A stretch of 59,522 bases of DNA, counting the filler, from Dirinaria sp. TL-2023a (taxonomy: Eukaryota), in the NCBI GenBank assembly GCA_051941275.1. It is 3 parts of 3 records of this genome, joined end to end, with 100 filler letters (N's around TTAATTAATTAA, not from the genome) between each part and the next. Parts side by side here need not be neighbours in the genome. Positions count along the whole stretch, not along the records: positions 1 to 19,796 come from JAVEBF010000313.1; 2 more parts are not named here. One strand, 5' to 3'. Made by a program: the position numbers and the translations under genes. Numbering within the stretch: position 1 is the stretch's first letter; each line of letters begins with the position of its first letter. This document shows, one piece after another, positions 1 to 19,896 of this stretch. The notes under the pieces were generated by a model that was given only the letters and a program-made list of their open reading frames with translations, did no database searches and had not been told where the DNA came from.

Positions 1-3000
1 GCATCTCGGGCCACGACTGCCGCACGGGGTTCTCGAGGTGGTAGACGGTGGACGTCGGAGGGGAGTGGGGCTGGAAGAGGATCTCGATGAGGCTGGACGC
101 GGCGACGTCGAGCGGGATCCAGGATAGTGTCTGCTCCGATTCTCAGCCACGGCGATTTACGGTTCTTGGGGCGGATTTGTTCGTGATGGGGGGAAAGAAA
201 AGAGAGTAGAAAAAAAAGAAGAAGAAGAAGAAGCAACAACTCACCCCCTGCAAATCAGGCAAAGCCCCCAATACCTGCGCGCTCCGAAACACGCTCGGCA
301 AATGCTCCGTCGCAGCCCAGCTCGCCGCGCCCGTCGAGCCCGTCAGCTGTCCCACACGCACGACGACGGGCTCGAACCGCTGCGTCGCCGCCGCCGCCTT
401 GAGCAGGATCTGCTCGCACACCCACTTTGCCTCGGGGTAGCCGAAGGGCGCCGTTACCTCGGGGTCGTCCATGGGGATCTCAGGGACCAGCGGCTGCGAG
501 GTTTTGGACGGGTAGTGCGCCACGCTGGCGATGGAGGAGGTGAACAGGATGCGTGGCGGCGCGGGACCGGTGCTGCGGATGGCGAGCTGGATGATGGAGG
601 ACAGGTACGTGAATTGGGCTTCGAAGGACGCGCATGCCCGGTTGAAGTCCATGGGCCAGGCGTTGTGGATGATGTACGAGGCCTGCTGGAGCCGGGTGTA
701 GAGTTCCGGGGATAGACCGAGGTTGGGTGATGAAGGTTTGGCTTCCAGGGGGTGCAGTTTGGGCCAGAGGTGGGAAGGGAGGCAGATCCCGGCTTTGGCA
801 AAGGCGCGATGTTGGCGGGAGGTCTGGTCTGTGGGTGTAGGTGAGGGCCGGTTGAGGCAGTAGATGTGCGAGACGGAAGGGTCTTGGGCGAGGATGGAGA
901 GGAGGCTGGAACCCAGGTTCCCCGTGGAGCCGGTGAGGATGACGATTTTGCCGTCTGGGCTATCGAGGTCGTGGAAGTCTCCCTTCATGGGCTCGGTGCT
1001 CATTGCTGCGATGGTGTTGCAGTGCCTTTGGACTGCCTCGTGCATGATTTCGGTCCTGGAAGGTTCAACTCCGTTGGTCACTCCATGGTCGCTGGCCAGA
1101 GATGACAAAGCTTTGCGCTGAGACAAGATTGTTGGATGTGAGTAGACAAAGCCTTTGGTCATGACAGACGAGGCCCTTTTGTCAAGGCCACTCTTTTGCA
1201 GTGCTGACGTTAGCATATTGTGCAGTCGAGTCGCTTGCAATGAGTTCATGCCTAGCTCGAAGATGTCCTCGTCAATACTCATAGGTGCCTCTTCCTGGCT
1301 AAGACCAAGGATGTTGGTAATAGCCTTCCGCAAATAGTGGTCAATCTCTTGCGTATTTTGCAGTTCGGGCAAGGGCTCGATGTTGGCGGTTTCGGCCTTG
1401 GAATATGCAGCGTCAATCTCTGCTGCAAACGAGTCATAGATCTCTTTCCTTGCAAGAGAGCCTTTAGCGGTTCGTTGCAGCGGTCGATCTACCGCACTTG
1501 CTTCAATGACCATGTCTTTGCTCACAGCAACATGGCTGTCGCTCTCCTTATTTCCTTTCTCCACTAACGGCCAGATGGCTTCGCGGAGAGAGTCGGCCTG
1601 ATTGTTGTTAGAGCAGTCAAGCTCAACATCTGGAGCAGCCTCCACAATAAGGCCGAGATGGTCGCGACCCTCCCCAAAAGCTATGGCGTCTGTGATTTTT
1701 GGGTCACTAGCGACAATCGCTTCGAGTCCTGTCGTACGAGCCTTTTCTCCATTTGCTAGAACAATCAGATCATCCGCCCGACCGAGAAATCGGAATTGCG
1801 TCGTTGAAGCCTTGGGATTTGGCTCAAGGAAGTCTTGCACTATGAAGTCCTCGTCCCACCCAGGAGCTCGGCCCACCAGCTTTACACAGCCGGCCTTTTC
1901 CGGACACTCCTCCAAGCGTAGGTTGAGATCGTTTCGAAGAACAAAGTAATGCCAATCATAGTCGGGTTTTGGGTTGAAGACTGGAGCAAGAGCACCAATC
2001 TCCGTGGCACCGCAGTGATTTAGCAGGCAAACCCCATTGGATGAAAGCTCCTCTGCAACAGCACTCTTCATTGGGCCACCACCACAAGCGACGAAATCAA
2101 GAGGCCGAAGTGCCTTGATGCCTGCTTGATCAGGAGCGTGACAGATGTCCTCCAGTATCATAGGAACAGTCACTAGCGAAGTAGACGCTGATTTCTGCAG
2201 CAGTCTTATGGTAGACTCTGCATTTGGTACCGTTGAAGCAGACGGCAGAGCGAACGTCTTTCCGATGGATAATGCTAGCGCAGGCGGTAGCATTCCGAAC
2301 CCCTGAAATTCGTACTAGCTTAGAGCACGCTCTTCATTTTCGGAAATCAGTAGACTTACGTGAAATAAAGGCAGAGTTGATGTACACACACGCGTTGTGT
2401 CTTCCCCAGGCTCAAACCGATGGCACGTGGCGTAATTGAGAAGATACCTGTGTGCATGATATATCGGTTTCGGCAGACCTGTAGACCCAGAAGAGTGCAG
2501 GATAATAGCATTTCTGTCGAGCTTTTTGATCGCCGGAGCTTGAGGTGGAACGCAGTCGCTTGATGGTTGCTCATCATTAACAAATGCTTCAAATGGGGCG
2601 CTTTCGATTAACGAAACCAATGCTAAACCTTTCTTTTCGACGATATCCGAGGCCTCTTTGGCTGAGCGGCTGGTATGAGTGGTGACTATCATACTTTTGA
2701 CCCCAATCTTCTCAACGAGATGGGCAATGGCGGCAGGACTTAGACGCGCAGAGAATAGCGCTACCTGTTAATAGTCAGGGATTCAACCAATTACCAATTA
2801 GATTAAGGTATATACTGGAATATCCAATCTCATCAGAGCCAACAGATAGATGAATAAGGTAACGTCACTAGCCATGAGCAGTGCAACTGCATCAGGCTTC
2901 TGATTTGCATTCCGGCCTTGATCAACAATCTCATCCATAAGCCGGAAAGTACATTTTCCCACAGCATCAGCTAAATCCTTGCATGTCAATCCATGAAGAT

Positions 3001-3199
3001 CGTTTTTGTTCTTGAGTTCCTGAAGACAGAAGACATGATCAGGATTGTTGACGGCATTGAAGTCAACCAAGTCCAGCAGGGTATGAATGGTGGAATTGTT
3101 TGTCTTAGCGCCCTTCCGACTGTCTATGCTTTCTTCTGCATCAAGTGGAGGTCTGATGAATGTATACACCTTGCTGTCTTCTATCGGTAAGCTGCCCAT
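1..3199 (-). CDS. NRPS-like adenylate-forming carboxylic acid reductase (A-T-R), 3' end truncated at the window/contig edge
   Basis: Inferred exons are 3199-2816, 2764-2360, 2302-245 and 130-1, separated by GT-AG introns. A-domain motifs [31 protein letters not shown] and GRADD; carrier-domain motif ELGMNSLQA; reductase motifs [19 protein letters not shown] and YPEAK (YxxxK). The last exon reads [11 protein letters not shown]...[15 protein letters not shown] and runs off the edge. Confidence 0.93.
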
Positions 3200-4239
3200 A
3201 ATGGCTCTTGAAATGACACTCTCAACTAAAACTTTAGAAGTGGAGGGGTGAGATTGTTCTGTCTACCTGATCCGACTGATCCAGGATGTCTTTTTCATTA
3301 GGAAGTGCGAGTGGTACACTCAAGCCAGGCTAGTACACAAGTAGTCGCATGAAGCGAACAGGCCAGACAGAAGCTATGAATACTTACTCATGGCGTTCGG
3401 GCCTCATAGTATAGCTTGACGAAGGAAGCTGATGCTCTCAGGCATCCTGACCCCACCATCATCGGACAGAGGCCCCAATGGCGACATAAGCCGTCGTCTC
3501 CATACCGCCCAACCAAGGCGGACCATGACACGATGCTAGTCCAGAGTCTCACCACAGTAATCGCCATGGTCCGCATCGCAGCTCAATCTTCACAAGAATC
3601 CTTTTATATGGTCCACTGTTCCAAAAAGAGAAAGCTGAGGAAGGCCGGGCACATGAGGCTGAAGAAGCAGCAAATTGGTCTTTACTGCGGTATCAGGACT
3701 TACTCTGGTCTTATTTACTCGGCCAAGAGCCCGTAGTCGCGGATGTTCGGCGATATTTATGCAGACAAGGGGCAGAATGCAAGCTCCGGGATAGTCGCAA
3801 TCTACGAAGTATTGCGTCGCAGGATTTGATCAGGTTAAGCTAGCTGCAGAAATTGGCTGGAACATATGCAGTCAGCTTCAAGCCACATCGTTGGCCTTAC
3901 GAGTTTCGTCTAAGCTCATGATCTTGGCATCTTTTTGGCCCCATCCATTGAAATTCCTTCATTCTCCCAACTTTGTGTTGGTTCATCGTCAGTCCACCAC
4001 ACCACCATGCGCATGCTGCACCGTTTCAACCATGTTGCTGTTTCCAACGCCCAATCACGGCGGGCAGTAAAGATGTCGAAATTGTCATGTGGTTACACCC
4101 CCTCGACCCTTTCCATGTCGCAATGTACCCTGTCTTATTCCTGAAGGAAGCGGATAGCTGCCGCCCGATTTCTGCTAGGCTACGATATCTCCAATGACTG
4201 AGCTCTATTCCAAATCTGTTGATAGCAAGATGTCTGGTC

Positions 4240-5766
4240 TTAATTGGGCTTGTCAACACTAGGGCAAACTGAGAAGCTCACAGAGCCTAAGGTGTCGCTG
4301 ACCATCTCCATCAGTCTACCGAGTTTCGTTGCTGGGCATGTGGTTGTGATGACGACGTGTCTGATCTCCTCTTGAGACGGCCCTGGGCTTTTTGGCGAAG
4401 GACAGCGCTGACTCGATGTGATAGTAAAATTGATGTACTGCAGCTCCTCCGCAGTTGTCTGCATGAGTTGCCGTATCTCTGCGCGCGAGCATGTGGCTGT
4501 GATGGTGACTGTTTTCTTTGCGTTTTGATCATCTGTCGCTTCTCTGGTTGTTGATGGGAGATCAGCATTGCTGGGCGCGACGAGATTAGGAAATATAGCT
4601 TGCGGTATCTGGAAGGAGTCGTGAGGCTATTTGAGTTAGCGAAGCTTTTCCACGGCTTAAGTGTACCATACCGGAGCCAAGTAGCCGTCAGAGAACGGCG
4701 CGTTGTGGAACATTTGATGATCACTCTCTGTGTACGTGGCTTGATTTGGAAAGGTTTGATCCAAAGATGGAAATTGAGGAAGGGAGTTTGAAGATGCAGC
4801 CGGCCAGAACGAATCGATATCCATGGTAGACATTGATGGAGACCCCGGAGAGCTCTCCATTAAATCATTGAACTCGACCTCCTTGACATGGCTGCTTGGT
4901 AATGACTTGTTCTCCGGCGGCCAGTCCTCATCGCCGTCGTCGTCGTCGCTCAAACTGTCGTTGAGATAATCTGACTCATTCCCTTCGCTCTGTGGAACAG
5001 TCTCGCTCGAGGTCTGTGCTGAACTACTAAGACTCGGTCTTCCAGATTGCGTACTCGTACTCGAGCGGGTCCTTGCTTGCGAGGAGTTGGAGGAATGTAG
5101 AGAGCTTGGTGTTGATGATTGCCTATTGACTCCAGGTCGTCGGCACATGTAATTGTACTGATTCCTTGCTGACAGAGCAGTACGGCCAGGGAAATGGTCG
5201 GCGACGATGGAACTCCAGTTGTGGCCCTGTTGCTCCACGCACCGTAATAGTGTTTTGGTCTAGAACGATAGAATGCCAAGACTCAGCCTTAACTGATCTG
5301 AACATGTATACACCGACCCAGTACAAATGGATTGAACAGAGCCAGACTTACATCTCGTGGACTCCAAGGGCTCTGGTCAATAGCTGGATCTAACGTATTG
5401 TTCCATCGCTTGGAGCACTGGTCACCACTTCTCGTCCCAACTTCGGCGGCAACTCTCGTCCATCGCAGTCCATACTTCTGGACAGCGGCGCGAAGTCTAT
5501 CGTCTTCAACCTTCGTCCATGTCCCCTTGTTGACCGTTGCCGAAACTTTGTAATAATAGCGTTTTCGACAATCTTTGTTGGTTCTGCCTGGCACGTTCGC
5601 AGCAATTGTGCTCCACTGAATACTTTGCAAGTCGCTGCCGGCTAGGTAGTCAAGATTAGGCTGAGACAGAGACCAGGTGACGAGAAAATAAATGAGCACC
5701 TTGTTCTACCGCTCGCTCCAGTAGCTCGTCCTCTCTTGCCGTCCAGTTTCGTCGCTCCCGTGCCAT
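4240..5766 (-). CDS. Three-repeat Myb-like transcription factor (probable cluster regulator)
   Basis: Inferred exons are 5766-5700, 5641-5352, 5259-4672 and 4626-4240. Myb repeats: RRNWTAREDELL...WSTIAANVPGRTNKDCRKRY, KGTWTKVEDDRL...WTRVAAEVGTRSGDQCSKRW and SPWSPRDTKTLL...NWSSIVADHFPGRTALSARNQY, followed by a Ser/acidic linker. The last exon depends on a 45-nt intron (4627-4671); without it the stop is at 4657. Confidence 0.88.
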
Positions 5767-6593
5767 TTGTATTTCCAGGTGAGGGCAAGATCTTGCAATC
5801 GGTAGCCAGGAAGCGAGATCAGCAGAGATAAAAATGCACTGTTACTCCCGAAGAGAGGCCAAATAAAAGCCGGAGCAACAGGCCAGATTCGTACTACGGT
5901 CGGCCTCAATCGCTCCGAATATCCCAGGATGCTCGAACACAGGCTTTAAGAATAGCCATCCTTTAATATTGAGGTTGCAGTGCGTTTACGGCGGATCGGT
6001 TTCTGCACCACTATTCAATGGCAGCGGTGAGCAGCTGCATTTGGGCCCGGACCACATCAGCCTTGCTCGGTGGGTACGAGTACCTTAGTGAGACACGCCA
6101 TCTAACTAGTTGTGTAATGGGATTCATGTCGGGGGGGAATGCTGGCTACCAAGTGGTGTGGCTTACTGCGAAGTTGCCCGCATGTCCATGAAAGAGATCT
6201 AAGGAGGATTCTGGCTTGCGACAAAGCGGGGCTTACTTACTGCTTACATACATTACTGGCATGCTGCAAAGATTGCCTGCTAAAGCTGAGAGGAGAAACA
6301 GGGAGTCCCCCTTCGTCACGCTCCCCATCCTTCGGACCATATCTACATACACGATACAGCTGAGAGAGAACGTTTGGAAGGCCCATGTGCGCATAACGGT
6401 ATGTGTGGATGCGCACCAAAGCGCTGTGCAGAGACAGATAGTTCTACTTGATTCGTTTTGCCTTACGATACATGCGTTATGCCCCCAATGTGGCTTATGC
6501 CCGGTTCCGAGATTAGGGCCGGGCCACCCAGTCGCGCCCCATACACAACCGCCGGGTGGGTGCAGCCTGAAAGGCACCCACGGTGTCTAGACT

Positions 6594-8266
6594 CTAGACC
6601 TTGCGCCTCTCCACACGCACCTGAAAACCCGACTGCACCACAAACCAACAATTCTCCACATGCCATTCTAGATCAGGTTCTGCAAGCGTGAGCTAGCGGG
6701 CGCCAAGTCAGTCTTTATTCACGAAGATTCTCGCGTGCTCCTCGAGAAGGACCATGGGATACATACATTGTATCTTCTCAGCAACGTTGGGATCAGCTTG
6801 TAAACTTCCAGTTGCGAGATATTCTTTCCAATGCAGGAACGATGGCCGGCACCAAACTGTGTCGTAGGCAATCGAGTCAGCCATGCACGAGACAGCGGAG
6901 TATAAGCTCATCTTACAGTCAAAAGAGACCGCTCCATCAATTTTCGCTGGTCCTCGTTGCCGCATAGCCATCTATTAGGATCCCATACCGCTGCGTTGGG
7001 TCCGAAGACTGACTCCTCTCGATGTGCTACCCAAGCATTGATGCCAACAATGGTACCAGGCTTGAAAGACTTGCCACAGATCGTTGCACCCTCGGAAGGG
7101 ACAATTCGTTCCAACTGCAAACCAAAGGGAGGATGTAAACGGCCCGCTTCTTTGATGCATGCATCTAAGAATGGGAGATCTTTCGCTTCACTCCACGCAA
7201 CAGCGTCGGCGGACAATTTCTCTTGATCAGCCGCCTGCTGCAGTTCTTCTTGAAGTCGATGCATCGTCGCAGGATATTTCAGGAGGTTATACAAGATGGT
7301 TCGCAGGAGGATTGCTGTCGTGTCGCTGCCAGCCAAAACATTGGATGTTGTCCAAGCAGTGAGGGCCCAGTCAGGAACCTTGTCATCCTTCGATTTAGCT
7401 TCGATGAAGCGGGACAAAAAATCTCGAGTATTCAACTCGATGTCCTCTGTCGGAGACTTGTTTTTCCTTTCGTCCGCTCGCTCGATGGCAAACCGGACGA
7501 TGGGCGAAGTGGGAGGGGGCCACAACCACGCCAGTGCTCTGTTCTTGTTCCAGAACTTGTCAAGCCAGGATACTTGACCGACCGGAGCAGCTTTCTCGAA
7601 ATGATGCCAGATAGAGTGCATGATACCATCGACGTCTTGTGCGCCTTCAAGGAACCCAAGACGACGTGAGAAGGTGATCTCGCCAATCACATCGAATGCA
7701 AATCGCTGGAGCCAGACGCCAAGATCACAGACATCGCCTGTGTTGGCAAACCTCGAATCCAGTTCTTTGCAGAAGACAGACATTGTCGAATCGACATACG
7801 GTTCAAAGCTGACCAAATTGGTCATCGAATATATGCTAGCAATTGGCTTCTTCATGATTCGATGGAGATCCTCGTCTTGGGTATTGAACAGTCCCGGCAT
7901 GGCAGCACCTTTGGCATGAGGCTGCAGTACCGGGTAGAACCCTGACTTGATAAAGTGGCCCGTCAAACCGTAAATTTGTTGTATCTCTGCCGGATCACCC
8001 ACGGAAACGGTGTTTGGCCCAATCCTGACCAGCGGTCCATATTTCTTATGGAGGTCGATGTGAATTTGGTGCGCTTTCCTCGTCAGGACCCATCGTAGAC
8101 GGAGAAGATTGGTGAACGATGCCAGAAACGGGCCGGGTACATGGCTCAATCGAGCATAGGTGACAACAAGGTACATCAAAGCGAGTATCAGGGAGAGCAC
8201 GCCGAGAATGGTCGCGTTGGCCTTCGCCAAGTCGATGGCAGCAGCCAAGGTCGCCGACAAAGCCAT
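6594..8266 (-). CDS. Cytochrome P450 monooxygenase (pisatin-demethylase-like type)
   Basis: N-terminal TM anchor, VPGPFLA, I-helix AGSDTT, K-helix EAGR, and heme motif FGAGHRSCIG in exon 2 (6856-6767). Exon 3 (6692-6594) ends ...VERRKV*. Introns 6857-6916 and 6693-6766. Confidence 0.95.
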
Positions 8267-8695
8267 AGTGTTGATCAGTTTCCCTTTGTCCACCAAAAAG
8301 GAACCAGCTATTGAAGCAATACATACTCGTTCGAGTATTGAGCGCACCACACTCTTTTGATTGTGGAAAGGCAATTACCGTGTCGCATCTCCATGCATAA
8401 GGTAGCATAAGGTACCTTAGCCAAGAGTTACGCTGGCACGTGACACTACCTACCCTCAGTACAGCCGCAACGGTTTCTCGGTTCTCCTATCAGACCCTGC
8501 ATGGACCCCGAGTACGGTCCAGAGTTAGTTCGCCTCGGCCCAGACCGTAGGATTTCCTGCCATGCCACATTGAGCCGCCAAGTGCCTGACTCATCATGCT
8601 CTCATCAGCCTTTGGTGTGAGGCATCCTGTCTAAGGGTCAAGAGGCAGGTCATGGACGACCATTTGTCCTGGCCAGGCAGCCGGCGATAGGTTGG

Positions 8696-8731
8696 CTTGA
8701 ATCCCACCTTGAATCCCACCTTGAATCCCAC
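8696..8731. repeat. Perfect 12-bp tandem repeat (CTTGAATCCCAC)x3 in the divergent P450/MFS promoter
   Basis: Units at 8696-8707, 8708-8719 and 8720-8731, read directly. Confidence 0.9.
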
Positions 8732-8940
8732 ACATGCAACATTGGCAGTGCACGTGTTTCCTTCCTCGGTCGGCTTCCCATTCCTCGTCGGTGCCTCTGA
8801 TTCGCCCACCAGCTTTGCCATGGGCTCTGCTACACATAAACGCCAAGGTCTCTGACTTCTAGCACCCGACCTTGTTGCTGGCTCATTCTGTACATCAATC
8901 CTTTGCTGCATACACTGTCGAAGCTGGAATCTTAGTCGCC

Positions 8941-10628
8941 ATGGCGCAAACATTCAAGACCGGAAGGCCGAACCTGTTGCAGCGCAAGAGCCATATGAAA
9001 TACGGCGACGAAAAAGAGTCGACGACGTTTGCCTTCCCACCAAGAACTGCACCAAAACCAAGCATCAGCAGCGACCGAACCTTTTCTTTCTCCTCATTCC
9101 GGACCCCATCATTCTCCCCATTCCAGGAAAGTGAAATCGAGCTAAATAAGAAAGCACAAACTGTACCAGACCCGGGGCCGGCACCAGACGGAGGGCTCAC
9201 AGCCTGGCTGCAGGTCTTGGGCGCATTCTTTCTGAACTTCAATACTTGGTGAAATCGCCCTGTAAGTGAACAAAATAGCGGCAACACTGACTCGCGGCGA
9301 TTTAGGGGCCTTGTCAATACTTATGGTGTCTTCCAATCATATTATGCTGGCGGCAGTCTCTTCACGGCGTCCCAGTCGGCCATCGCCTGGCTAGGTTCCA
9401 TTCAAGGCTTCCTGATGCTCACGATAGGGGTACTCTGTGGACGCGCCATCGACGCAGGGTATCTTCGCATCAACTTGGCGGCGGGTATAGTGACGATGAT
9501 TTTTGGTATGATGATGGTGTCGATCTGCCACGATTACTGGCAGTTTGTCTTGGCCCAAGGGGTCGTGGCTGGACTCGGTTCTGGTGCAACCTTCATACCT
9601 AGCGTGACTGTGGTAGGAACGTATTTCTCGGCTCATCGGTCGCTCGCCATTGGTATAGCAACAACTGGTAGCAGCGTTGGTATGTTCGCGTTCCTCAAAG
9701 TCATTCACGCAACTCACTCATAGGATCATGGCGTCTTCTAGGTGGCATCATATACCCTATCGTCTTGCGAAGACTGATAGCGGAGATCGGCTTTGGTTGG
9801 GCTGTCCGCGTGATGGCATTCATCATGCTCACGACTCTATTACTGTCGCTATCCGTGATGAGGTCTCGCCTGCCACCAAGGAAGTCAGGGCCTATCGTGG
9901 ACTTTAGCGCTTTCCGAGACCCAGGGTACTCCATATTTCTCGCCTGTGAGTTTAACCATCCGATCGTGAAATTTGTGGGCTGGCTTAACTTGGAAACCAG
10001 CTGTCTTCATCACATACACCGGTCTATATGTGCCTTTCTTCTATGTCGAGTCCTATGCAACCAACATAGGGATCAACGAGGACATGGCCTTCTACATGCT
10101 GATCATGATGAACGCAGCAAGCGTGTTGGGAAGAATTTTGCCGCCGTTTGTCGCAGACAGGTGAATGTTCCATAGCACCTTTTTGCAACCGGCGTCTTTC
10201 CATACTAACGTATGCTACATTGCAGCACGGGCAACCTGGCCATACTCATACCATGCAGCTTTTTCTCCGCACTCATACTGCTCTCCTGGATCCGGGTCAA
10301 CTCGCAAGAGGGAATCATTGCGATATCAGTCATGTACGGTTTCATCAGCGGAAGCATACAGGCGGTGGTACCTGCAACGGTAGCCTTTCTATGCCCGGAC
10401 CTATCGAAGTATGGGACCAGACTCGGTATGGTGCTCGCAATCGGTGGCGGCTTTGGTGTATTGCTTGGGGCTCCACTTGCCGGCGCAATCCTGGACAGCC
10501 AGTCTTCAGCCGATCAACAGGAGTATTGGGGACTCCTTGTCTTCTCTGGCATCCTGGTTTTTGCAGGCGCGGTGCTCCAGCTCGTTGTAAGAACTCTCAA
10601 GGTTGGATGGAGCTTGCAAAAAGCCTGA
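8941..10628 (+). CDS. MFS transporter, monocarboxylate-permease-like (probable cluster efflux pump)
   Basis: [36 protein letters not shown] signature and multiple TM helices. Introns 9249-9305, 9680-9741, 9946-10000 and 10161-10225 restore the frame. The start could alternatively be 8995. Confidence 0.92.
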
Positions 10629-13061
10629 GTATGGAGAATCTAGGGTGCCAAAGGCTTCTTGTTTGGCACAAATCCATCTCTGATCCACCGCAATCTTATT
10701 TATTTTCGCAGCATCGGTTAAAGCTTTACCCTCACAGTTGCACCTTGGTATGTTCCAGTAGAAAGGTTGGAAGGCTGCTAGTCGTTGAGACGGGTACAAA
10801 GACATTGGAGAGGAGAAATCGCATGGAAGGCGTTCCAGCAATTGAGCGTGGCGGCTTAGGAGACAACTTCTTCATCTTGGTACCTTAGTCTGTGCTCTCT
10901 GATGAAGACTGAACTCAACGGTGGTCATGGAGAAGCAATAGATAAGAAAGTGCCGAGGGTGCTTACGCAACCAGGTCAAGCGTAACTTAAAGCAGACCAT
11001 TACGTCATCTTACAGACCTACTTGAGCCCTAAGGCTTGCTTACCTTCCATATTTATGTTACCTGACCTGTACATTACCTTGCTCTCCAGTCTCTTATGGT
11101 GTCTGTTCTTGTCGACCCTCCCTCGCATAGCCACAGCATCAAGACTTGCAGTCACAACTCTGAGCACTCCCTAGCTGTAATGCCGACCACAAGAATTGGA
11201 ATAGGTCCGGAACAGTTTGATCCTCCGCCGGATGTTCCAGCTCCTCGTTCGTATGCCAGCGGAAGCAGCCACTCGAAATTCATTGTAGCTCACTTGCTAT
11301 CTGGCGCTAGAGGCCGATCGTATGTCAATATCTACGCTCGTATCATATTAATCTGAAAGACAACAGCTCGGATCTAGCTACTTCTATCCTTTAAGATGTT
11401 CACTACGCCGGAGATACAACAGGTACTCACCTAAGTCCACCTAGTGCGTGAAATCTGCTGAGGATCCATAGGAACACGATTCCAGAGTATGTGCTCAAGT
11501 CCGCGGAAAATACGGCGCTGAATTGTTCTGCACTGCCAAAGCATGCTCAGCGTCGATAATCAACCTCCTGACCACTGTATGCCACTTGGTCTAAGAGTCC
11601 CCGTTTCATCCACCAACGTCGCACATTTGTAAGAGCTTGGAGCGTACGGCATGACGCAACAACTATATGCAAAAGTCTCGGGCGGAGGAGCAGCCATGTG
11701 GATGGAAATCCCGGGCCATCCGTACAAACCATACCGTAGGGCTGCTGCGCGGCGGGAGCCATGCTGTCGGAGACGATGCATCAAGCCACGATCCGAACAT
11801 GATGACTGGCGTAAGCTTACCGCGACAAGCGATGTGAAGAGCAGGGGTACAATGCTATACCCCGTGGCCGGGGAACTTGCCAGGGACTCTCGCCACTACC
11901 TCGCCCCATAAGCTTTCTGATTTGATGGACAACCGTCCGCAACCCGTATCATCGTTTGGCCCTCTGCCAAGCTGTCACTCATCATCCTGAAATCGGAGCT
12001 TTTGAACCTCGTTTGATCTTTATGCACAAAGGCTATCTTTTGTTTAGTCCTGCTATTTACTCGCCCTATTTACTCACCCATGTTCTCTGATTATGTGCTG
12101 CAAAGATGTTTTCAAGGTTCGCCATACTCGCCCCTTTCGGGAGATTGCCGCAGTGTTTTCCCATCATGTACAGATTTTCTCCAGAGTAATCATGCCTCTA
12201 GAGAATCATAATCGAAGATCTCAGCCAACGTTACAGTTCAGCTTATTTCACTTCGCGCTCAAGGCGGGGTCCATTAAGTCTGCAGTCTTAACCGTGTGCG
12301 AAGCATACTCAATACTGAATAAATCGGTCGCATGTGCTGCAATGAAAGGTAGGTCATCGTAAGTCCCGCCGAAATCGTACTCAGTAGAAAAATTTTGGCA
12401 GTTTTAATCCCTTTTCAAGGTGTCTTTACTCGGATAGATTGGAGATCTATTCGGCTTTTGCTAATTATACGTGGGATGTCCCTACCGTGGTTCCAATGGA
12501 TGGAACACCCATCACAATCACTCTGCCAATTTCGTGCAATGGCTCTGGGTAGCTTCACCTTTCAAAGAAGAAGAGGATGTTGGGTGCGAGTATCAAGGTC
12601 CGTGGTGTCGGCTATCTGGTCCTGGACGACATGGCCAGTTGGGACTCGAAGCGCACGCGACTCTGCGTCCCTCTTATGGACAGAGTAAAATCAGCTCGAC
12701 TTTGAAGACGCTCTCAAAGTTGAAGCGCAAGCCTCAATACTCCAGTAACGATGTTTGTAGGCCTTAGAGGCTGACCGCTTAAGCGACTTTTACTCGGGGC
12801 TGGACTTTCTCCTAACTTGGCACATGGTGATTTTGGTCCCTTGGCGCCGGATTGATCCCTGGATCACCTTGGATCAGGTTACCCTGGATTACTCCTTACG
12901 AGACATACCTGATCTAGGCTGAACGGATTGGTTGAGTGTAAGGGCTGACCGCTTCGTCTTGTCTGGGGTCCTTGAATATTGAATCCAGCACAGCTTGGCA
13001 TTATATCACTGATAACTCGGAAGTGCCTCCCCATTTGTCCAATATGCCACTCGGGTAGACG

Positions 13062-16000
13062 ATGGCAATACGTGTTTCCGTTTTTGCTGGGCTCGGCTCT
13101 CCTGCCCTTTTCTCCTCGTCTACCCAGGCAACTGCAGTAGCCGATGCCGCCCTCCCGGAAGCTCAAGCTCTACTCAATGCTTGCCACAAGATATTCTTGA
13201 CCGAATTCTCCCCTCACTCTAAAAAGCACGGCAATGTCGGCTTGGCTGTCGCTGTGAAAGATTTCCCAAACCCGAAGGATCTGCTGGTTCCACCAGAGAG
13301 ATATCACAAGAATGCCGTCATCCAGAATACAACTTTGTGCTTGGTGCAAATGCTTCGGTACCTTGCCTACAGCGCTAAACATGCTGACGGCGATATGCGC
13401 TGGACCTCTGGGACAGCCGGGGTGTGCTCTGGACTACTCACTGCCACGGCCGTTGCAGCCTGTTCCGATATGGTCACTTTTCTTTCGTATGGGCAGAGAT
13501 CCTTCCACCTAGCACTCTTGCTTGGTAGGCGAATAGAAGAACATGTGAAACATGTACTGTGGTCTACGGGTAGTAATAGAGAGCTCCCTTGGAGCGTGAT
13601 CATCGATGGCCTTACGAAACATCAAGCTGAGGAGTTAATCTTGAAACACAAGCAAGCAGTATGTAATGGCACGGTCACTACTCTATACCCCAGGCCAAGC
13701 TCACGTCTTCTAAGAATCCAGATATACACATCTATGTCAGCACGAAAAGTACAGATCAATGCCTTACGTTGAGTGGTCGAGGAGACCAAATTCAAGATTT
13801 CGTCCAAAACACTCTTCCCAAAAATTGTCGTTCCAGGCCAACAAATCTATATTCTCCGTATCACGACCGTCGCACCCTTGTCTCCGTTAAAGCACAAGTT
13901 CTATCCGATGCCGCTGAGCGTGGGCTTACATATCCTTCTCTGGCGGAACTGAAAGTTCCAATATATATGGGAGATCCGGTACCGTCGTCAATGAATCCTG
14001 CCACCATGCAGCAGAGTATGCTGCATATGATACTCGATCGCATTCTGACATGCCCAGTCGACTGGCTGTCCGCGCAAGAACAGATCTACACAGATCCTGC
14101 AATTGCCAGAGCGGATGGAACTCTGAATAGAGAGGTGCTCAACTTTGGGCCGGGCTATGGTGTCGTCAAGTCCGAAGCACAACGTAGATCTAATGTTCGA
14201 GTGTTGGATGTGTCTTCCGAAGCAAGTCATGATGGTCGCTCCGAAGCGCCACCCATAACCTCGGACGAGGACATCGCTATTATTGGCATGGCTGTTGACC
14301 TTCCTGGTGCGCCAGACTCCGAGAGCTTATGGAAAGCTCTGATGGACGAGATCAATACAGTTGAACAGGTATACGCTACTAAAGTCAGCTCATTCCATAT
14401 ACTGCAGCCACTGATCCCCGCAGATTCCAGAATCCCGTTTCCACGTTGAAGACTTTTATGACTCTTCGAAATCTAAGGCGAGCAAGCCGAAGAGGTCGTT
14501 GGGCACAAAGTTCGGGAACTTTATGGACGACCCGTTCAGATTTGATCATTCCTTCTTCGGAGTCTCTCCTAGGGAGGCCAAATCTGTTGATCCACAGCAG
14601 CGCGTTTTGTTACAAACTACCTACAAAGCGTTGGAAGATGCCGGTTACGTGCCTGACTCGACTCTATCCTTTGCACGAGACACCTTTGGCTGCTATATCG
14701 GCAATGCGACTTTGGACTACCCTGATAATTTAAAAGACGAGATTGATGTCTATTACAGCCCAGGCAAGAAGAGAACCCCGGTGATCTTTATCGGAATAGA
14801 CACTGACCATCCTCAGGAACCCTACGCGCCTTCCTCAGCGGCCGTGTATCTTATGTGTTTGGTTTCAGTGGACCGTGTATGACAATTGACACAGCATGCT
14901 CATCTTCGATGGTCTCAATTTTCCACGCCTGTCGGGCGTTGGTCGCTGGGGACTGCCGAGCAGCTGTGGCTGGTGGTGTCAATGTCATTACCAGTCCAGA
15001 CGTGAGTGATTGCGCCCTAAATTAATAATGAGCAAGCTTACAGTGTTTAGATGTATCTTGGTCTAGACCGTGCCCATTTTCTCAGCCCGACGGGCCAGTG
15101 CAAAGCGTTTGATGCCTCTGCAGACGGCTATTGTCGTTCTGAGGGCTGCGGGATCTTTGTCCTGAAACGCCTGAGCGATGCGTTCAACGATTCCGATAAC
15201 ATTCTTGGAGTCATAAAAGGCGTAGAGATCAACCAAAGTGGTAATGCAGATTCTATAACTCATCCTCACGCGCCGACTCAAGAGCAATTATTTCAGAAGC
15301 TGTTTAGCAAAGCCGACATAGACCCCCTTCGGGTCTCTGTTGTCGAGGCACACGGCACAGGAACGCAGGCTGGCGATCCCCAGGAAGCTACAAGCATACG
15401 TAATGTTTTATCCAAGGGCCGAGATGAGTCAAACCCGTTGTATCTCACTTCAATCAAGGCAAATATTGGCCACTGTGAAGCTGCATCCGGGGCCGCTGCA
15501 TTGGCCAAATTACTGCTTATGACCGAGCACGCCAGCATTCCCAAACAGGTCTCCCTGAACAACCTCAATCCTCGCATAGCTCCTCTGGGTGTCGACGGTA
15601 CGATGATTGCTCGAGACCGAACGGAGTGGACTCCAGCTGCGGGACAGCCCCGGATAGCCATGCTCAACAATTTCGGCGCAGCTGGGTCCAATGGAGCCCT
15701 TCTACTGCAAGAACCTCCCCAGCATAGCCGAAGCAATGCTTTTACGAAGCTCGAGCAACGCCAAACTCACGTGTTTGGATTTTCTGCTAAGAGCGCAAGC
15801 TCGCTATCTGCGTATCGAAAGATTCTGATTCCTTTCTTGAAAGGCAATTCCGATAATCTGGATCTGTGCGATATATGTTACACAAGTACCGCTCGTCGCC
15901 AGATATACAATTTCCGTACTGCTACTCACGCAAACTCTGTCCTTGAGCTGGCGGAGAAGCTGGAGAAGGCCGAGCATGCGGAAGCCAAGAAGGATGTTGT

Positions 16001-19000
16001 TCCACGAGTCATCTTCGTCTTCTCCGGTCAAGGAAGCCAGTATGTCTCCATGGGTCACGAACTCTTCACTACCTCGAAGATATTCCGGGAGACCGTGCTA
16101 GACTGCGAGTCCTGGCTACAGAATGAGGGCTTTCCAAGCTGTTTACGCATAATCAATTACGACGATGAAGCTGGTGAGGATTTGAAAGCAGAAGAGGAAC
16201 TACAGGCTATGCAAACGGCTATCTTCGTGGTTGAGGTTGGGCTAGCTAGAATGTGGTGCAGTTGGGGTGTGCAGCCTGCCATGGTTACAGGGCATAGGTA
16301 CGTGGTGATGTACGAAGCTTGCTAAATGGGACTGACTGTCTTTAGCATCGGGCAATATGCCGCGCTTGTCATTGCGGGAACACTGGACCTGATCGATGCG
16401 CTGAAGATTGTGGCGTCTAGAGCGCGGCTTATGATCGAGAAGTGCCCGCGTGCCGCCACGGGTATGTTGGCAGTCAACCGGAGCACGAGTGAAATCGAGC
16501 GTTACATATCCAGTTCATCCACTTACAAAGACCTGTCGATTGCGTGCTGCAACAGTCCTCATGATTGCGTAGTTGGTGGTCCTTTGGGGCCCCTAGAAGC
16601 GCTGAGAGTCGATCTGAAAGAGAACCACAAATTCAAGGCTGCGATGCTGGGTAATCCTATGGCGTACCATACTAAAGCCATGGAGCCCGTTCTGCCAGAG
16701 TTAACCAGCATATCGGCTTCCGTCAAGTGGTCCCCTCCACAGATCCCTGTTATCTGCAATGTTCTCGGTCGTGTGGTCGAGCAAAATGAAACCACGTTCA
16801 CCCCAGACTTTCCATCACGACACTGCCGACAGACTGTCAAGTTCGAGCAAGGTATTGATGATGCCCTTTCTGGATACTTTGGAGAAGGCGGAGAGCCAAT
16901 CAGCTGGGTCGAAATCGGACCCCATCCTTCAATCATACCCATGATCAAATCCCAGGTCTCCGACAAGGATCACGCTTTCATCACGTCGATGCGCAAGTCT
17001 ACACCCCCCTGGCAGACGCTCTGTGAAGCTCAAAGTCAGCTTTACCGTTCCAATGTTCCAGTCAATTGGCTCAGCATTTTCTCCGAACCTTTGACGCCAA
17101 AGTGCACGAGTCTTCCTAGCTATCAGTTTGACTACAGCAAATTCGTTGTTGAGTATCCTCATGAGGCCGCCAAGGACTCAGCTACCACCCAACCACCATC
17201 TACCGGCTATGGTTTTCTCACCTGCCAGAAAGAGTCCTCTTCAGCTTCGGGTTCAAAGGAGATAGTCTTCGAGACTCCCATACAACACTTGGCAGAGTAT
17301 ATTACTGGCCATATGGTGTGCGGTTTCGCGCTTTGCCCAGCATCAGTGTATCATGAAATGGCCCTAGCAGCTGCCGAGATTTGCGACAAACACGAAGGAT
17401 CAGAAAGCGACGGCTCAACTCCAGCTACCAATACGCTTACTCAGATATCGTACCTAAACCCTCTGATCTATGTCGAAGGTGCTGCGCGAAACATCAGGAT
17501 TACGATCCGCTTGATAAATGAGAAACCAGAAGCCACCAAAAGCTTTACGGTCTCATCATGCGACCCGTCGGATAGCAAGAAAATCATTCACCACTGCCAA
17601 GGACACGTTAAATGTCAACCGCTGCCAGCGGTAGAGGCAAAGTTCAGAATGCTTCATGCGCAGCTCCAAAAGCCAGTGTCATTGTTTGATGACGCGGAGT
17701 CTACCGAAATTTTTCGAACGAGAGCTATATACGAGAAATTGTTTCCACGTGTGGTGACATACTCTAAGATGTATCAAGCAGTCCAGTCGATGAGCATCTC
17801 AGCCGATGGAGCCGAAGCACTCGCGACGGTTCGTATACCGAGCGCTTCTGCAACATCCGAGAAATTCGCTGTCAACCCAATTTTCATGGACGTTATCCTG
17901 CACGTAGCGGGCTTCGTCGCCAATCTTGCAGCTGAGGACGCAGATGCCTTCATATGCAAAGAGGTCAAATCGGCGAAGGTCATGATGGCTCCCACAGACC
18001 TTCAGCAACCTATCCAAGTCTACTGCAGCAATATAACTGTTGCAGAAGGCAATTCTACCATTGGCAACGGCTACGCGATGGGGCCCAAGGGCCGTGTTCT
18101 TGCCGTCTTCAAGGGGATGCACTTTACACGGGTCAAGCTCTCGAAGATAGCAGCAGGATTCCGGCACGCGTCAGGCAAGTCAGATAAAAAGACAGAAAAA
18201 GCCAAGGTTGAAGCAAACAAGAGAGAATCGAGTGAGAGCAAGCAGCTGTCGATAGGTTCTCCTGCGAGACAATCTGACGACACCGCTCGCCCAGCTAAGC
18301 CCTCGCTGATGGTAGATGCCAAACAGATCATTGCTGAGGTTTGTGGCGTTGAGATAACAACCATCACATCTGACAGCGAACTTGAAGCCCTAGGTATTGA
18401 TTCTCTAATGATACATGAACTTGGCTCCCGGATCCAGGAGGCAGCAGATGCCACGTTCACTAACGATGAATTGACTGCTTGCTCAACGGTGAAAGATATT
18501 GAGACTCTGCTAGCATCTAAGGGTGAAAGACCGCTGGAGAAGAAAGCAAGCCGCGCACCATCAGAGTCGCCCGTGCTAGGGCACTCCTCTAGCATTAGTC
18601 AAGAAGTCGATACAGCAAGTTCCTCCGGCCCGTCCGCTATTCCAATAATAGTGGAAATTTGTGGTGTTGAGGCAAGCACCATCACTGCCCAAACCGAGCT
18701 TGAGAGCCTTGGTATCGACTCACTCATGATCTTCGAGCTCGAAGACAAGCTGAAAGAGTCGATCTCAACAGACTTGGATGGAGCAGAGCTTGGATCCTGC
18801 AAGACCGTTGGAGAGATCAACGACCTGCTTCGCAAGACCACGGGAACTGAAGAGCCGCAGCCTTCCCAGGCCGAAAACCAAATAGTGCGCCCACAACTTC
18901 AGTCCTATAGCTCATCGTCATCTGGGTCTAGCATGGCCACTTCCAAGCTAGCCTCTCCTGCGTCCACCCAGCTATCTACCCCTCCAACACGGCCATCCTC

Positions 19001-19796
19001 TACGTCGCCGCGTCCCGGAGTAGATCCAGATATGTTACAGAAACGTTTGCCAAAGGTTCTAGAATCCAAGCTCTCCCATGAATCCCCCACCCGCCCCTCA
19101 TGTGATTCGCCTCATTCAGAGACACCAAAGATCCTTCTTGATGGCCCTCCAAAGCATTTAGGTCTTGAAAACCCGTTAACACTCATCCAACCCGGCAAAG
19201 CAGGAAGCCTTTCTCAACCACTGGTCCTCATCCACGACGGCAGCGGCGTAAATCTCAAATACCGCAACATCCAGCAGCTGAACCGTCAACTCTTCGGCAT
19301 GTCCAATCCCAAAGCCTTCAGCACAGAGACCTGGACCGACCTAGCAAACATGGCTCAATCCTACGCAACCAAAATATCCGCGACCATCGACGGCCCAGTG
19401 ATTCTCGGAGGTCAGTCCCCTGTCACTCACCAAACACACGATAGAAATACACAAAGCTAACCTTATCTTTCCCCCCATCTAGGCTGGTCGTTCGGCGGTG
19501 TGGTCGCCTTCCACGCCGCGCATCTCCTGCTTAAAGACAAATATCCCATCTCCGGCGTTCTGCTCATCGACTCCCCCGCCCCTCTCAACCACCAGCCCCT
19601 TCCCAAAGCTATCATCGAGTCCGTCTCCAAGACCTCGAAATCTACTACCGCCACGAACGCCATAAACGCCGCCGTTGCCCGCCAGTTCGAGCTCAACACT
19701 GCCTTGCTCCAGAAATTCACGCCAAGCTCCAAAGGCCCGTTCCCGGAGATGCTGCTGTTGAGGAGTTGCGAGGGATACGATGCCGAGGGTAGGGGC
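13062..19796 (+). CDS. Non-reducing polyketide synthase SAT-KS-AT-PT-ACP-ACP-TE (orsellinic-acid-synthase-like), 3' end truncated at the contig edge
   Basis: SAT (VFAGLGS, GVCSG); KS (DPQQR, DTACSSS, EAHGTGT, KANIGH); AT (FSGQGSQ, GHS across an intron); PT ([19 protein letters not shown]); two ACPs (both LGIDSLM); TE (IHDGSG, GGWSFGG, LIDSP). No methyltransferase, KR or ER motifs were seen. Introns 13659-13714, 14369-14423, 14764-14816 (GC-AG), 15002-15050, 16298-16345 and 19411-19481. Confidence 0.96.
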
Positions 19797-19896
19797 NNNN
19801 NNNNNNNNNNNNNNNNNNNNNNNNNNNNNNNNNNNNNNNNTTAATTAATTAANNNNNNNNNNNNNNNNNNNNNNNNNNNNNNNNNNNNNNNNNNNN
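19797..19896. other. Artificial contig-joining spacer (N44-TTAATTAATTAA-N44)
   Basis: Exactly 100 bp. The 12-mer places stop codons in all six frames, and genes are cut on both sides. Confidence 0.98.

What the first reader, a model, noticed from the sequence alone, without database searches (positions are those of the whole stretch)
1..19796. Compact cluster of NR-PKS, aryl-acid reductase, Myb regulator, P450 and MFS transporter: a candidate uncharacterised orsellinaldehyde-derived pathway
Seen: five consecutive genes are all biosynthetic, regulatory or transport genes. The PKS has SAT-KS-AT-PT-ACP-ACP-TE with no C-MeT, and the A-T-R enzyme has intact adenylation, phosphopantetheine-Ser and YxxxK reductase motifs. 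Established: NR-PKS/A-T-R pairs release an aryl acid and reduce it to the aldehyde (StbA/StbB for LL-Z1272beta, AscC/AscB for ascochlorin, ATEG_03629/ATEG_03630). From recall, the A. nidulans cichorine cluster also combines an A-T-R reductase, a P450 and a Myb factor, but with a methylating PKS. Inference: orsellinic acid is reduced to orsellinaldehyde, and the P450 oxidises the ring methyl towards a phthalaldehyde, phthalide or isoindolinone, or couples rings. Both ends are cut, so prenyl-, methyl- or halogen-transferase genes may lie on adjacent contigs.
Basis: partly seen in the sequence, partly recalled or inferred. Interest (0 to 1): 0.8.

Follow-up and report, generated by a model that had tools for sequence, protein, structure and literature searches.

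The report
Lichen orsellinic-type aldehyde gene cluster
A lichen fungus carries a real, transcribed gene cluster that most likely builds a small aromatic acid, reduces it to an aldehyde and hydroxylates it; it is an uncharacterised member of a cluster type already known from moulds and mushrooms.

Summary
Positions 1-19796 are one whole 19,796-base contig; the window is three contigs joined by N linkers. It carries an A-T-R aryl-acid reductase, a Myb factor, a P450, an MFS transporter and a non-reducing PKS (SAT-KS-AT-PT-ACP-ACP-TE, no C-methyltransferase). All catalytic motifs are present. Both core genes are cut by the contig ends.

New here:
- One search lists the window's own reductase under a Dirinaria sp. 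(lichen) name.
- PKS, P450 and reductase also share one 98.5-kb Squamulea contig.
- The P450 is 52% identical to ATEG_03631, the P450 of azasperpyranone cluster A in A. terreus.
- The reductase has the His-355-type substrate residues of reductases that take free orsellinic-type acids.
- In a tree the PKS lies between two characterised orsellinic acid synthases.
- RNA contigs of one lichen sample, about 95% alike, cover all genes and confirm 9 introns.
- They also show an unannotated spliced transcript at 11167-12217.

The pathway logic is supported by homology only; the product is unknown. PKS-reductase and reductase-P450 pairs recur in other fungi, and the cichorine cluster adds a Myb factor. 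This is a new member of a known kind, of moderate interest.

The parts
2..3199 (-). A-T-R aryl-acid (carboxylate) reductase, partial. Exons 3199-2813, 2761-2360, 2302-245 and 130-2 give 992 aa in the contig; the C-terminal end of the R domain runs off base 1.
   Evidence: Pfam AMP-binding, AMP-binding_C_3, PP-binding and NAD_binding_4. Database protein P0121 maps exactly to the first three exons. Motifs. Pocket residues G264 L268 T308 L328 L356 H359. The RNA joint 2761>2813 confirms intron 1.
4243..5766 (-). Myb transcription factor with three N-terminal Myb repeats, about 443 aa. Introns 5699-5642 (predicted), 5351-5260 and 4671-4627.
   Evidence: Pfam Myb_DNA-binding and Myb_DNA-bind_6. Frames, model. 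RNA joints 5259>5352 and 4626>4672.
6594..8266 (-). Cytochrome P450, 512 aa. Exons 8266-6917, 6856-6767 and 6692-6594; haem motif FGAGHRSCIG.
   Evidence: Pfam p450, E 2.9e-52. Model. RNA joints 6856>6918 and 6692>6767 appear in all 4 runs. It is 79% identical to the Squamulea protein Q9209_006734 and 52% to ATEG_03631.
8267..8940 (.). Shared divergent promoter region between the P450 and the MFS gene (674 bases).
   Evidence: Follows from the start codons at 8266 (-) and 8941 (+). A regulatory role is inferred.
8941..10628 (+). MFS transporter, about 482 aa, five exons. Predicted introns at about 9249-9305, 9680-9741, 9946-10000 and 10161-10225.
   Evidence: Pfam MFS_1. Four GT-AG introns restore an open frame. 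These introns are not spliced in the RNA contigs that cover them.
11167..12217 (+). Unannotated spliced transcript between the MFS gene and the PKS. Introns at about 11251-11310 and 11421-11469 (GT..AG). The longest ORF is 86 aa and matches no family.
   Evidence: RNA contigs with joints 11243>11311 and 11420>11470 in X1 and X2. Sequence. Pfam gives nothing up to E 1 except two chance-level hits.
13062..19796 (+). Non-reducing PKS, SAT-KS-AT-PT-ACP-ACP-TE, 2134 aa in the contig; the last ~60 aa of the TE are missing. Introns 13659-13714, 14369-14423, 14764-14816 (GC-AG), 15002-15050, 16298-16345 and 19411-19482.
   Evidence: Pfam. Model and motifs. RNA joints of the same lengths appear at 4 of the 6 introns. 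Global identity is 66% to Squamulea P0001, 43% to the OpS1 cluster and 41% to the PKS63787 cluster. Tree.
19797..19896 (.). Artificial linker (N44, TTAATTAATTAA, N44) that ends this contig. What follows is an unrelated contig.

Best explanation
This is the core of a secondary-metabolite cluster of a lichen-forming fungus. Every enzymatic step below is inferred from homology; none was assayed.

1. The non-reducing PKS builds a small C2-C7-cyclised aromatic acid, most likely orsellinic acid, and its thioesterase releases it as the free acid.
2. The A-T-R enzyme adenylates that acid, loads it on its phosphopantetheine arm and reduces the thioester with NADPH to the aryl aldehyde (orsellinaldehyde).
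3. The P450, a relative of ATEG_03631, then hydroxylates the aldehyde or a close derivative. The most likely site is the methyl group ortho to the aldehyde, as the cichorine/zinnimidine-type enzyme ZinA does. That would give a 2-(hydroxymethyl)benzaldehyde, which can close to a phthalide-type ring or act as a reactive building block.
4. The Myb protein is the pathway-specific activator, as CicD is.
5. The MFS protein exports the product.

Further tailoring genes may lie beyond both contig ends.
For: Shown here:
- Domain order and all catalytic motifs, with no C-methyltransferase.
- Tree of 40 rows. The window's PKS groups with Squamulea (support 100), then Letrouitia (100), then Sarcosagium (94). 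This clade is sister to a 20-row clade that holds OpS1, named 'Orsellinic acid synthase'. The other 16-row clade holds PKS63787 and an Armillaria PKS.
- The six reductase pocket positions named in PMC9605436 (passages) map 6 of 6 onto P0172 with an offset of 4. In the window they read G, L, T, L, L, H, which is the His type.
- The P450 is 52% identical to ATEG_03631.
- In Squamulea, PKS 006732, P450 006734 and reductase 006737 all show contig length 98508.
- RNA contigs of one lichen sample cover 29 of 30 bins in the best run. Spliced joints confirm P450 2 of 2 introns, PKS 4 of 6, Myb 2 of 3 and reductase 1 of 3. The spacers 3301-3960 and 12541-13200 have almost no cover.

From papers (passages read):
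- The ATEG_03629/03630 pair gives the aldehyde, and ATEG_03631 oxidises a later intermediate (PMC8948627).
- ZinF reduces the acid and ZinA hydroxylates the ortho methyl (PMC12268544).
- Deleting cicD abolishes cichorine (PMC8395729).
Against: - No enzyme assay or metabolite links the cluster to a product.
- The nearest non-lichen PKS relatives (Aspergillus and Penicillium, 46% global identity) are uncharacterised. The tree holds no PKS of other product classes and no outgroup, so it cannot exclude another chain length or starter unit.
- I could not obtain CicH or ZinA sequences, so their kinship to this P450 was not tested.
- The review passage does not say which site ATEG_03631 oxidises.
- The MFS introns are unspliced in the RNA contigs, so sense expression of the transporter is not shown.
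- The RNA comes from a relative 90-99% alike, from one sample of one study, and contigs give no expression levels.
- Same-contig calls rest on equal contig lengths and locus tags, not on coordinates.
Confidence: 0.6

Rival explanations
1. Same logic, different polyketide. The PKS makes another small aromatic acid, for example a 6-alkyl-resorcylic acid from a longer starter or a product of different chain length. The reductase and P450 then act on that acid.
For: Only 41-43% global identity to the characterised orsellinic acid synthases. The closer Aspergillus and Penicillium relatives (46%) are uncharacterised. The lichen clade stands alone in the tree.
Against: Characterised orsellinic acid synthases sit on both sides of the window's clade. 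The SAT has the usual GxCxG cysteine. No fatty-acid synthase or reducing PKS that could supply a starter lies on the contig, though both ends are cut.
Confidence: 0.2
2. Depside or depsidone cluster of the lichen type. The PKS joins two orsellinate units into a depside. The P450 makes the ether bond or hydroxylates, as in the PKS16/grayanic acid or atranorin clusters. The reductase trims the free carboxyl.
For: The host is a lichen fungus (name). NR-PKS plus P450 is the known depsidone pattern (abstract of PMC8533459; passages of PMC13062703). Relatives in groups I and VIII can cross-link orsellinate (passages of PMC8262933).
Against: None of the 120 listed PKS hits is from Cladonia, Parmeliaceae or Umbilicaria, where PKS16 is described. 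This is weak evidence, because only 7997 candidates were scored. The P450's nearest named relative is ATEG_03631, from a monomer-aldehyde pathway. No O-methyltransferase is on the contig. The reductase pocket is of the free-monomer His type.
Confidence: 0.08
3. Meroterpenoid cluster of the LL-Z1272beta/ascochlorin type. Orsellinic acid is prenylated first, and the reductase acts on the prenylated acid. The prenyltransferase gene lies beyond a contig end.
For: StbA/StbB and AscC/AscB are PKS-reductase pairs of this kind (passages of PMC9605436). Both contig ends are cut.
Against: StbB and AscB carry Phe at position 355, while the window's enzyme has His. No prenyltransferase was found in 19.8 kb.
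Confidence: 0.07

Closest known systems
Azasperpyranone cluster A of Aspergillus terreus (ATEG_03629 NR-PKS, ATEG_03630 A-T-R reductase 'AtCAR', ATEG_03631 P450)
   Same: It has the same trio of NR-PKS, A-T-R reductase and P450. The P450s are 52% identical. The reductase has the same His-type pocket. The pathway is aryl acid, then aldehyde, then oxidation (PMC8948627).
   Different: ATEG_03629 makes 5-methylorsellinic acid, whereas the window's PKS has no C-methyltransferase. The A. terreus cluster also needs an FAD monooxygenase (ATEG_03635) and ATEG_03636, and neither was seen on this contig. Its product is joined to an azaphilone made by a second cluster.
Cichorine (cic) cluster of A. nidulans and zinnimidine (zin) cluster of Alternaria
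   Same: Both combine an NR-PKS, an A-T-R reductase (CicB/ZinF) and a P450 (CicH/ZinA). The cic cluster also has a Myb-like activator (CicD).
   Different: PkbA and ZinH make 3-methylorsellinic acid. Those clusters also hold an O-methyltransferase and oxidoreductases (CicE, CicC; ZinB, ZinE, ZinD) that this contig lacks. CicD is listed with 2 Myb repeats and 341 aa; the window's factor has 3 repeats and about 443 aa. Sequence identity to the Cic and Zin proteins was not tested, because no sequences were at hand.
Orsellinic acid synthase plus reductase pairs: Ustilago Pks5 system, StbA/StbB, AscC/AscB, Hericium HerA/HerB
   Same: A non-methylating PKS is paired with an A-T-R reductase that gives an aryl aldehyde (titles and abstracts).
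   Different: StbB and AscB act after prenylation and carry Phe-355. The mushroom pathways lead to meroterpenoids. None of these is described with this P450, Myb and MFS set.
Squamulea sp. 1 locus Q9209_006732-006737 (uncharacterised)
   Same: The PKS is 66% identical (global), the P450 79% and the reductase 66%. All three show contig length 98508, and the locus-tag order fits the window's gene order.
   Different: It is a different order of lichen fungi. The tags allow one more gene between the P450 and the reductase than the window has. I could not read that contig.

Membership tests
Non-reducing PKS of the orsellinic acid synthase type | Domain order SAT-KS-AT-PT-ACP(-ACP)-TE without C-methyltransferase or reductase domain | tested here: met
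   Pfam on all exons; nothing but a Ser/Pro-rich linker lies between ACP2 and the TE.
Non-reducing PKS of the orsellinic acid synthase type | Catalytic residues of every domain present | tested here: met
   Motifs. The TE Asp and His lie beyond or near the contig end and were not seen.
Non-reducing PKS of the orsellinic acid synthase type | Groups with characterised orsellinic acid synthases in a tree | tested here: inconclusive
   The window's clade lies between the OpS1 and PKS63787 clades. The tree has no PKS of other product classes and no outgroup. It used 37 of the 120 listed hits plus 2 cluster members.
Non-reducing PKS of the orsellinic acid synthase type | Product is orsellinic acid | not testable with these tools
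   Needs heterologous expression.
Fungal carboxylate reductases of clade VI (NR-PKS-linked aryl-acid reductases; PMC9605436) | A-T-R architecture with adenylation motifs, a phosphopantetheine Ser, and the NADPH site and YxxxK of the R domain | tested here: met
Fungal carboxylate reductases of clade VI (NR-PKS-linked aryl-acid reductases; PMC9605436) | Pocket residues G260, V264, T304, L324, L352 and H355 | tested here: met
   5 of 6 are identical; V264 is Leu, as in 11 of the 12 other rows that have a residue there (2 of the 15 rows are gapped). H355 is present. The numbering was transferred through P0172, an inferred AtCAR orthologue.
Fungal carboxylate reductases of clade VI (NR-PKS-linked aryl-acid reductases; PMC9605436) | Encoded beside an NR-PKS | tested here: met
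   Both lie on the same 19.8-kb contig.
Fungal carboxylate reductases of clade VI (NR-PKS-linked aryl-acid reductases; PMC9605436) | Falls in clade VI in a tree with the named members | not tested
   Sequences of StbB, AscB, CicB, Esp4, AtCAR and Pks5 were not available.
ATEG_03631 / CicH / ZinA-type P450 | Intact P450 with a haem-binding Cys | tested here: met
   FGAGHRSCIG lies in exon 2, which RNA joints confirm as spliced.
ATEG_03631 / CicH / ZinA-type P450 | Sequence kinship to the characterised members | tested here: inconclusive
   52% identical to ATEG_03631; CicH and ZinA were not available.
ATEG_03631 / CicH / ZinA-type P450 | Hydroxylates the methyl group ortho to the aldehyde or alcohol | not testable with these tools
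   Needs an assay.
Cichorine/zinnimidine-type isoindolinone-phthalide cluster | C-methylating NR-PKS that makes 3-methylorsellinic acid | tested here: not met
   No methyltransferase domain.
Cichorine/zinnimidine-type isoindolinone-phthalide cluster | O-methyltransferase and alcohol/aldehyde oxidoreductase genes in the cluster | tested here: not met
   None is on the contig. They could lie beyond the cut ends.
Lichen depside/depsidone (PKS16-type) cluster | PKS orthologous to PKS16, with an adjacent O-methyltransferase | tested here: inconclusive
   No Cladonia, Parmeliaceae or Umbilicaria PKS is among the 120 listed hits and no O-methyltransferase is on the contig. No PKS16 sequence was available for a direct test.
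LL-Z1272beta/ascochlorin-type meroterpenoid cluster | Prenyltransferase in the cluster and a Phe-355 reductase | tested here: not met
   His at the position. No prenyltransferase on the contig.

The most novel reading that the evidence does not exclude
The cluster is the conserved core of a pathway shared by two lichen orders, the Dirinaria/Heterodermia group and the Squamulea/Wetmoreana/Letrouitia group. It is transcribed in thalli and makes an orsellinaldehyde-derived metabolite not yet recorded in lichen chemistry, such as a dihydroxyphthalide or a reactive hydroxymethyl-benzaldehyde building block. Its transporter and P450 pair may be controlled by a long antisense or leader RNA, and a spliced non-coding RNA may sit inside the cluster.
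Probability: 0.3. Interest if true: 0.55.

Novelty: new member of a known kind. Interest (0 to 1): 0.35.

Why it matters
Very few lichen gene clusters have been linked to a compound. Those that have are depside, depsidone, usnic acid and anthraquinone clusters.

This cluster is compact and has relatives in many records. One search lists 26 relatives of the reductase at 52-77% identity, 4 of them named lichens (Heterodermia, Wetmoreana, Squamulea at 66%, and the window's own). One search lists 11 relatives of the P450 at 73-86%. RNA contigs show the cluster transcribed in a lichen sample.

That makes it a practical target for heterologous expression, and it could add an aldehyde-based branch to lichen chemistry. 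It would not change how such pathways are understood, because the same enzyme combinations have been worked out in Aspergillus and Alternaria.

Tried and rejected
- Whole-genome search: no genome is held for this window.
- Earlier notes of this scan: none by place or by sequence.
- Scan of metagenome contigs with P450 exon 1, to read the flanks of orthologous clusters: only 2 loci at 30-34% identity, useless for synteny. I could therefore not see what lies beyond the PKS and the reductase in Squamulea or other lichens.
- Pfam on the small ORFs of the 11.2-12.2 kb transcript and on Myb exon 4: nothing up to E 1 except two chance-level hits at E 0.07-0.08.
- My first automatic splice search for the PKS skipped a small exon, and the second found no solution. 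The reason is that intron 3 has a GC donor; I solved it by reading the sequence.
- The cichorine paper PMC3826659 is not held, so I could not check whether that cluster has a transporter.
- Print searches for this cluster:
  - 'Dirinaria' with gene-cluster terms gave nothing relevant.
  - The main text of PMC9907504 holds none of Dirinaria, NRPS-like, orsellinic, azasperpyranone or cichorine.
  - PMC12711211 holds none of NRPS-like, orsellin, azasperpyranone, cichorine or Myb.
  - PMC13062703 mentions NRPS-like only in a figure legend and a reference.
  - Supplements were not read and may list such clusters.
- DNA contamination of the RNA library as the source of cover: unlikely, because introns are spliced out and two spacers have almost no cover. 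No separate silent stretch could be laid, since the one call was used.
- I did not scan the promoters for Myb-site motifs, because the motif is too short to have any power.
Full report
**What the window is.** The 59,522-base window is not one stretch of genome. It is three contigs of 19,796, 19,772 and 19,754 bases joined by artificial linkers (N44, TTAATTAATTAA, N44) at 19797-19896 and 39669-39768. The finding therefore covers exactly one whole contig. One search returns the window's own reductase (100% identity) with a contig length of 19,796 and the NCBI name 'MAG: hypothetical protein Q9191_002897, partial [Dirinaria sp. TL-2023a]'. The host is thus a lichen-forming fungus, and the genes after 19896 are not neighbours. 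No whole genome is held for it.

**The observation.** Stop-to-stop ORFs and Pfam confirm five genes.
- The PKS carries SAT, KS, AT, PT (PS-DH and PKS_DH_N), two PP-binding domains and a thioesterase. It has no methyltransferase domain.
- The reductase carries AMP-binding, AMP-binding_C_3, PP-binding and NAD_binding_4.
- The other three genes carry Myb, p450 and MFS_1 domains.

**Gene models.** I built models by aligning relatives and reading the sequence.
- PKS (+): starts at 13062 and has six introns, one of them GC-AG at 14764-14816. The contig holds 2134 aa, and about 60 aa of the TE are missing. All catalytic motifs are present.
- Reductase (-): exons 3199-2813, 2761-2360, 2302-245 and 130-2, giving 992 aa with the C-terminus cut. 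Adenylation motifs, the carrier Ser, TGSTGNLG and YPEAK are all present.
- P450 (-): 512 aa in three exons. The database protein P0241 (452 aa, 100% identical over the first exon) stops at the first intron and lacks the haem exon.
- Myb (-): runs from 5766 to about 4243, about 443 aa, with three N-terminal repeats.
- MFS (+): runs from 8941 to 10628. Four GT-AG introns restore an open frame of about 482 aa.

**Relatives of the PKS.** The PKS query was the 1044-aa exon (959 proteins at E <= 0.001 among 7997 scored, 120 listed). The best hits are lichen fungi: Squamulea at 55% (66% over the whole model), Letrouitia and Sarcosagium. After them come Aspergillus, Penicillium and Xylariales at about 35%, Beauveria, and many mushrooms.

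**Relatives of the reductase.** One search gives 201 proteins, 120 listed. Besides the window's own protein there are 26 hits at 52-77% identity. Most are unnamed; three carry lichen names (Heterodermia, Wetmoreana and Squamulea).

**Relatives of the P450.** One search gives 1422 proteins, 120 listed. Eleven hits lie at 73-86%, and after them identity falls to 58% and below. One named hit stands out: 'Cytochrome P450 monooxygenase ATEG_03631' at 52%. One search shows this is the Swiss-Prot entry with the alternative name 'Azasperpyranone A ...'.

**Conserved linkage.** In Squamulea the PKS (Q9209_006732), P450 (006734) and reductase (006737) all show contig length 98508. The tag order matches the window's gene order.
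- PKS and reductase share a contig length in six organisms: Squamulea, Rhizina, Cytidiella, Botryobasidium, Heliocybe and Gloeophyllum.
- P450 and reductase share one in eight: Squamulea, three unnamed records (44015, 52398, 49214), A. multicolor (tags 186129 and 186131), A. mulundensis (DSM5745_00507 and 00508), Madurella fahalii (06823 and 06826) and A. floccosus (218927).

These matches rest on contig lengths and tags, not on coordinates. They show that these pairings are widespread in fungi and not peculiar to this genome.

**What the PKS makes.** One search shows that the Beauveria hit clusters at 90% identity with 'Orsellinic acid synthase' (OpS1), and the Taiwanofungus hit with 'polyketide synthase 63787'. 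Passages of PMC8262933 cite the latter among orsellinic-acid-linked mushroom enzymes.

I made a quick maximum-likelihood tree of 40 rows. The rows were the window's model, 37 of the 120 listed hits chosen by hand to span the taxa, and 2 cluster members; the other 83 listed hits were left out.
- The window groups with Squamulea (100), then Letrouitia (100), then Sarcosagium (94).
- This clade is sister to a 20-row clade that holds OpS1.
- The other 16-row clade holds PKS63787 and Armillaria.

Characterised orsellinic acid synthases thus sit on both sides of the window's clade. The tree has no outgroup and no PKS of other product classes, so it supports orsellinic acid without proving it.

[quoted passage not shown] It names pocket residues G260, V264, T304, L324 and L352 and a variable position 355. 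That position is His in six enzymes, Phe in StbB and AscB (which take prenylated grifolic acid) and Gln in PnlA.

The A. floccosus reductase P0172 shares contig length 218927 with a P450 that falls in the 90%-identity cluster of ATEG_03631. P0172 shows exactly this residue pattern, 6 of 6, at an offset of 4. Through it, the window's enzyme reads G264, L268, T308, L328, L356 and H359. All 15 aligned sequences have the His. This favours a free, unprenylated orsellinic-type acid as the substrate.

**What the P450 and the Myb do.**
- A review passage (PMC8948627) says that ATEG_03629/03630 give 5-methylorsellinic aldehyde. An FAD monooxygenase then hydroxylates it, and ATEG_03631 oxidises it further.
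- PMC12268544 (passages) shows that ZinF (A-T-R) reduces the PKS acid. The P450 ZinA, a homologue of CicH, then hydroxylates the methyl group next to the former carboxyl carbon, which leads to phthalides and isoindolinones.
- CicD is a Myb-like protein (PMC11199622), and its deletion abolishes cichorine (PMC8395729).

I could not obtain CicH or ZinA sequences, so their kinship to this P450 remains an inference.

**Transcription.** Four RNA runs of one sample and one study, labelled 'lichen metagenome', hold 7-14% of the sampled words of bases 1-10000. I laid them on the contig at 90% likeness or more.
- Contigs laid: 28, 25, 22 and 14. None is 99% alike or better; 54 are 95-99% alike and 35 are 90-95% alike. 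They therefore come from a relative, not the same individual.
- Cover: 29, 26, 24 and 10 of 30 bins.
- Spliced joints match my introns in length and lie within 3 bases of them. They confirm the P450's 2 of 2 introns (all four runs), 4 of 6 in the PKS, 2 of 3 in the Myb and 1 of 3 in the reductase.
- Not confirmed: PKS introns 3 (GC-AG) and 4, which lie in a bin with almost no cover, two reductase introns and the first Myb intron.
- The spacers 3301-3960 and 12541-13200 have almost no cover, which argues against plain DNA carry-over.
- All five genes are therefore represented in RNA of one lichen sample. Contigs cannot give levels or strands.

**Two unexpected things in the RNA.**
- Contigs with two GT..AG joints (about 11251-11310 and 11421-11469) show a spliced plus-strand transcript at about 11167-12217, between the MFS gene and the PKS. 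Its longest ORF is 86 aa, and no Pfam family matches it. It differs more from the window than the coding parts do: about 9% against about 4-6% counting changed letters and gaps (table 8).
- A 4.1-4.2-kb contig in three runs joins the spliced P450 message to the whole MFS gene. It has no joint at any of the four predicted MFS introns, and a separate contig of run X4 (9890-10360) also crosses two of them unspliced. A long minus-strand RNA that runs antisense through the MFS gene into the P450 would explain this. Intron retention or an assembly merge would explain it too. I cannot decide between these.

**Comparison and verdict.** The cluster works like azasperpyranone cluster A and the cichorine and zinnimidine clusters. 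It is not a member of the cichorine type, because its PKS does not methylate and the contig holds no O-methyltransferase or oxidoreductase. It is not of the LL-Z1272beta type, because the reductase has His rather than Phe and there is no prenyltransferase.

My searches found no paper that describes it (main texts only, supplements not read). It is a real, conserved and transcribed lichen cluster, and an uncharacterised one. It is a new member of a known kind, its product is unknown, and the interest is moderate.

Noticed in passing
window 19797-19896 and 39669-39768: The window is three contigs (19,796, 19,772 and 19,754 bases) joined by N44-TTAATTAATTAA-N44 linkers. Genes on either side of a linker are not neighbours in the genome.
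   Followed up: yes
window 11167-12217 (+): A spliced transcript with two GT..AG introns lies between the MFS gene and the PKS. It has no ORF over 86 aa and no family match. It diverges more from the related RNA than the coding genes do. It may be a non-coding RNA or a small-protein gene inside the cluster.
   Followed up: partly
window 6918-10788: RNA contigs of 4.1-4.2 kb in three runs join the spliced P450 message to the whole MFS gene, and none of the four predicted MFS introns is removed. This could be a long antisense or leader RNA, intron retention or an assembly merge.
   Followed up: partly
window 14764-14816: PKS intron 3 has a GC donor (GCAAGA...CCTCAG). A GT donor gives no open frame that keeps the conserved KS sequence. 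No RNA contig covers this spot.
   Followed up: partly
window 6594-6916: The database protein for the P450 (P0241, 452 aa) ends at the first intron and lacks the haem-binding exon. RNA joints show that two more exons are spliced on.
   Followed up: yes
window 19795: RNA contigs of all four runs run on for 26-39 letters beyond the contig end, so the PKS message continues and the assembly simply breaks there.
   Followed up: no
It may belong to a paralogous cluster.
   Followed up: no
window 27581-28981, 35579-36886, 38593-39429: The second contig carries housekeeping-type genes: GWT1 (E 1.5e-148), an MMM1-like protein and a Methyltransf_16 lysine methyltransferase. A 951-aa ORF at 22084-24939 matches no family.
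   Followed up: no
window 47159-48447, 52176-52688, 54465-55602, 57836-59479: The third contig carries a GMC oxidoreductase, two zinc-type alcohol dehydrogenases and a UvdE UV endonuclease (E 2.4e-101). A 942-aa ORF at 41137-43965 matches no family.
   Followed up: no
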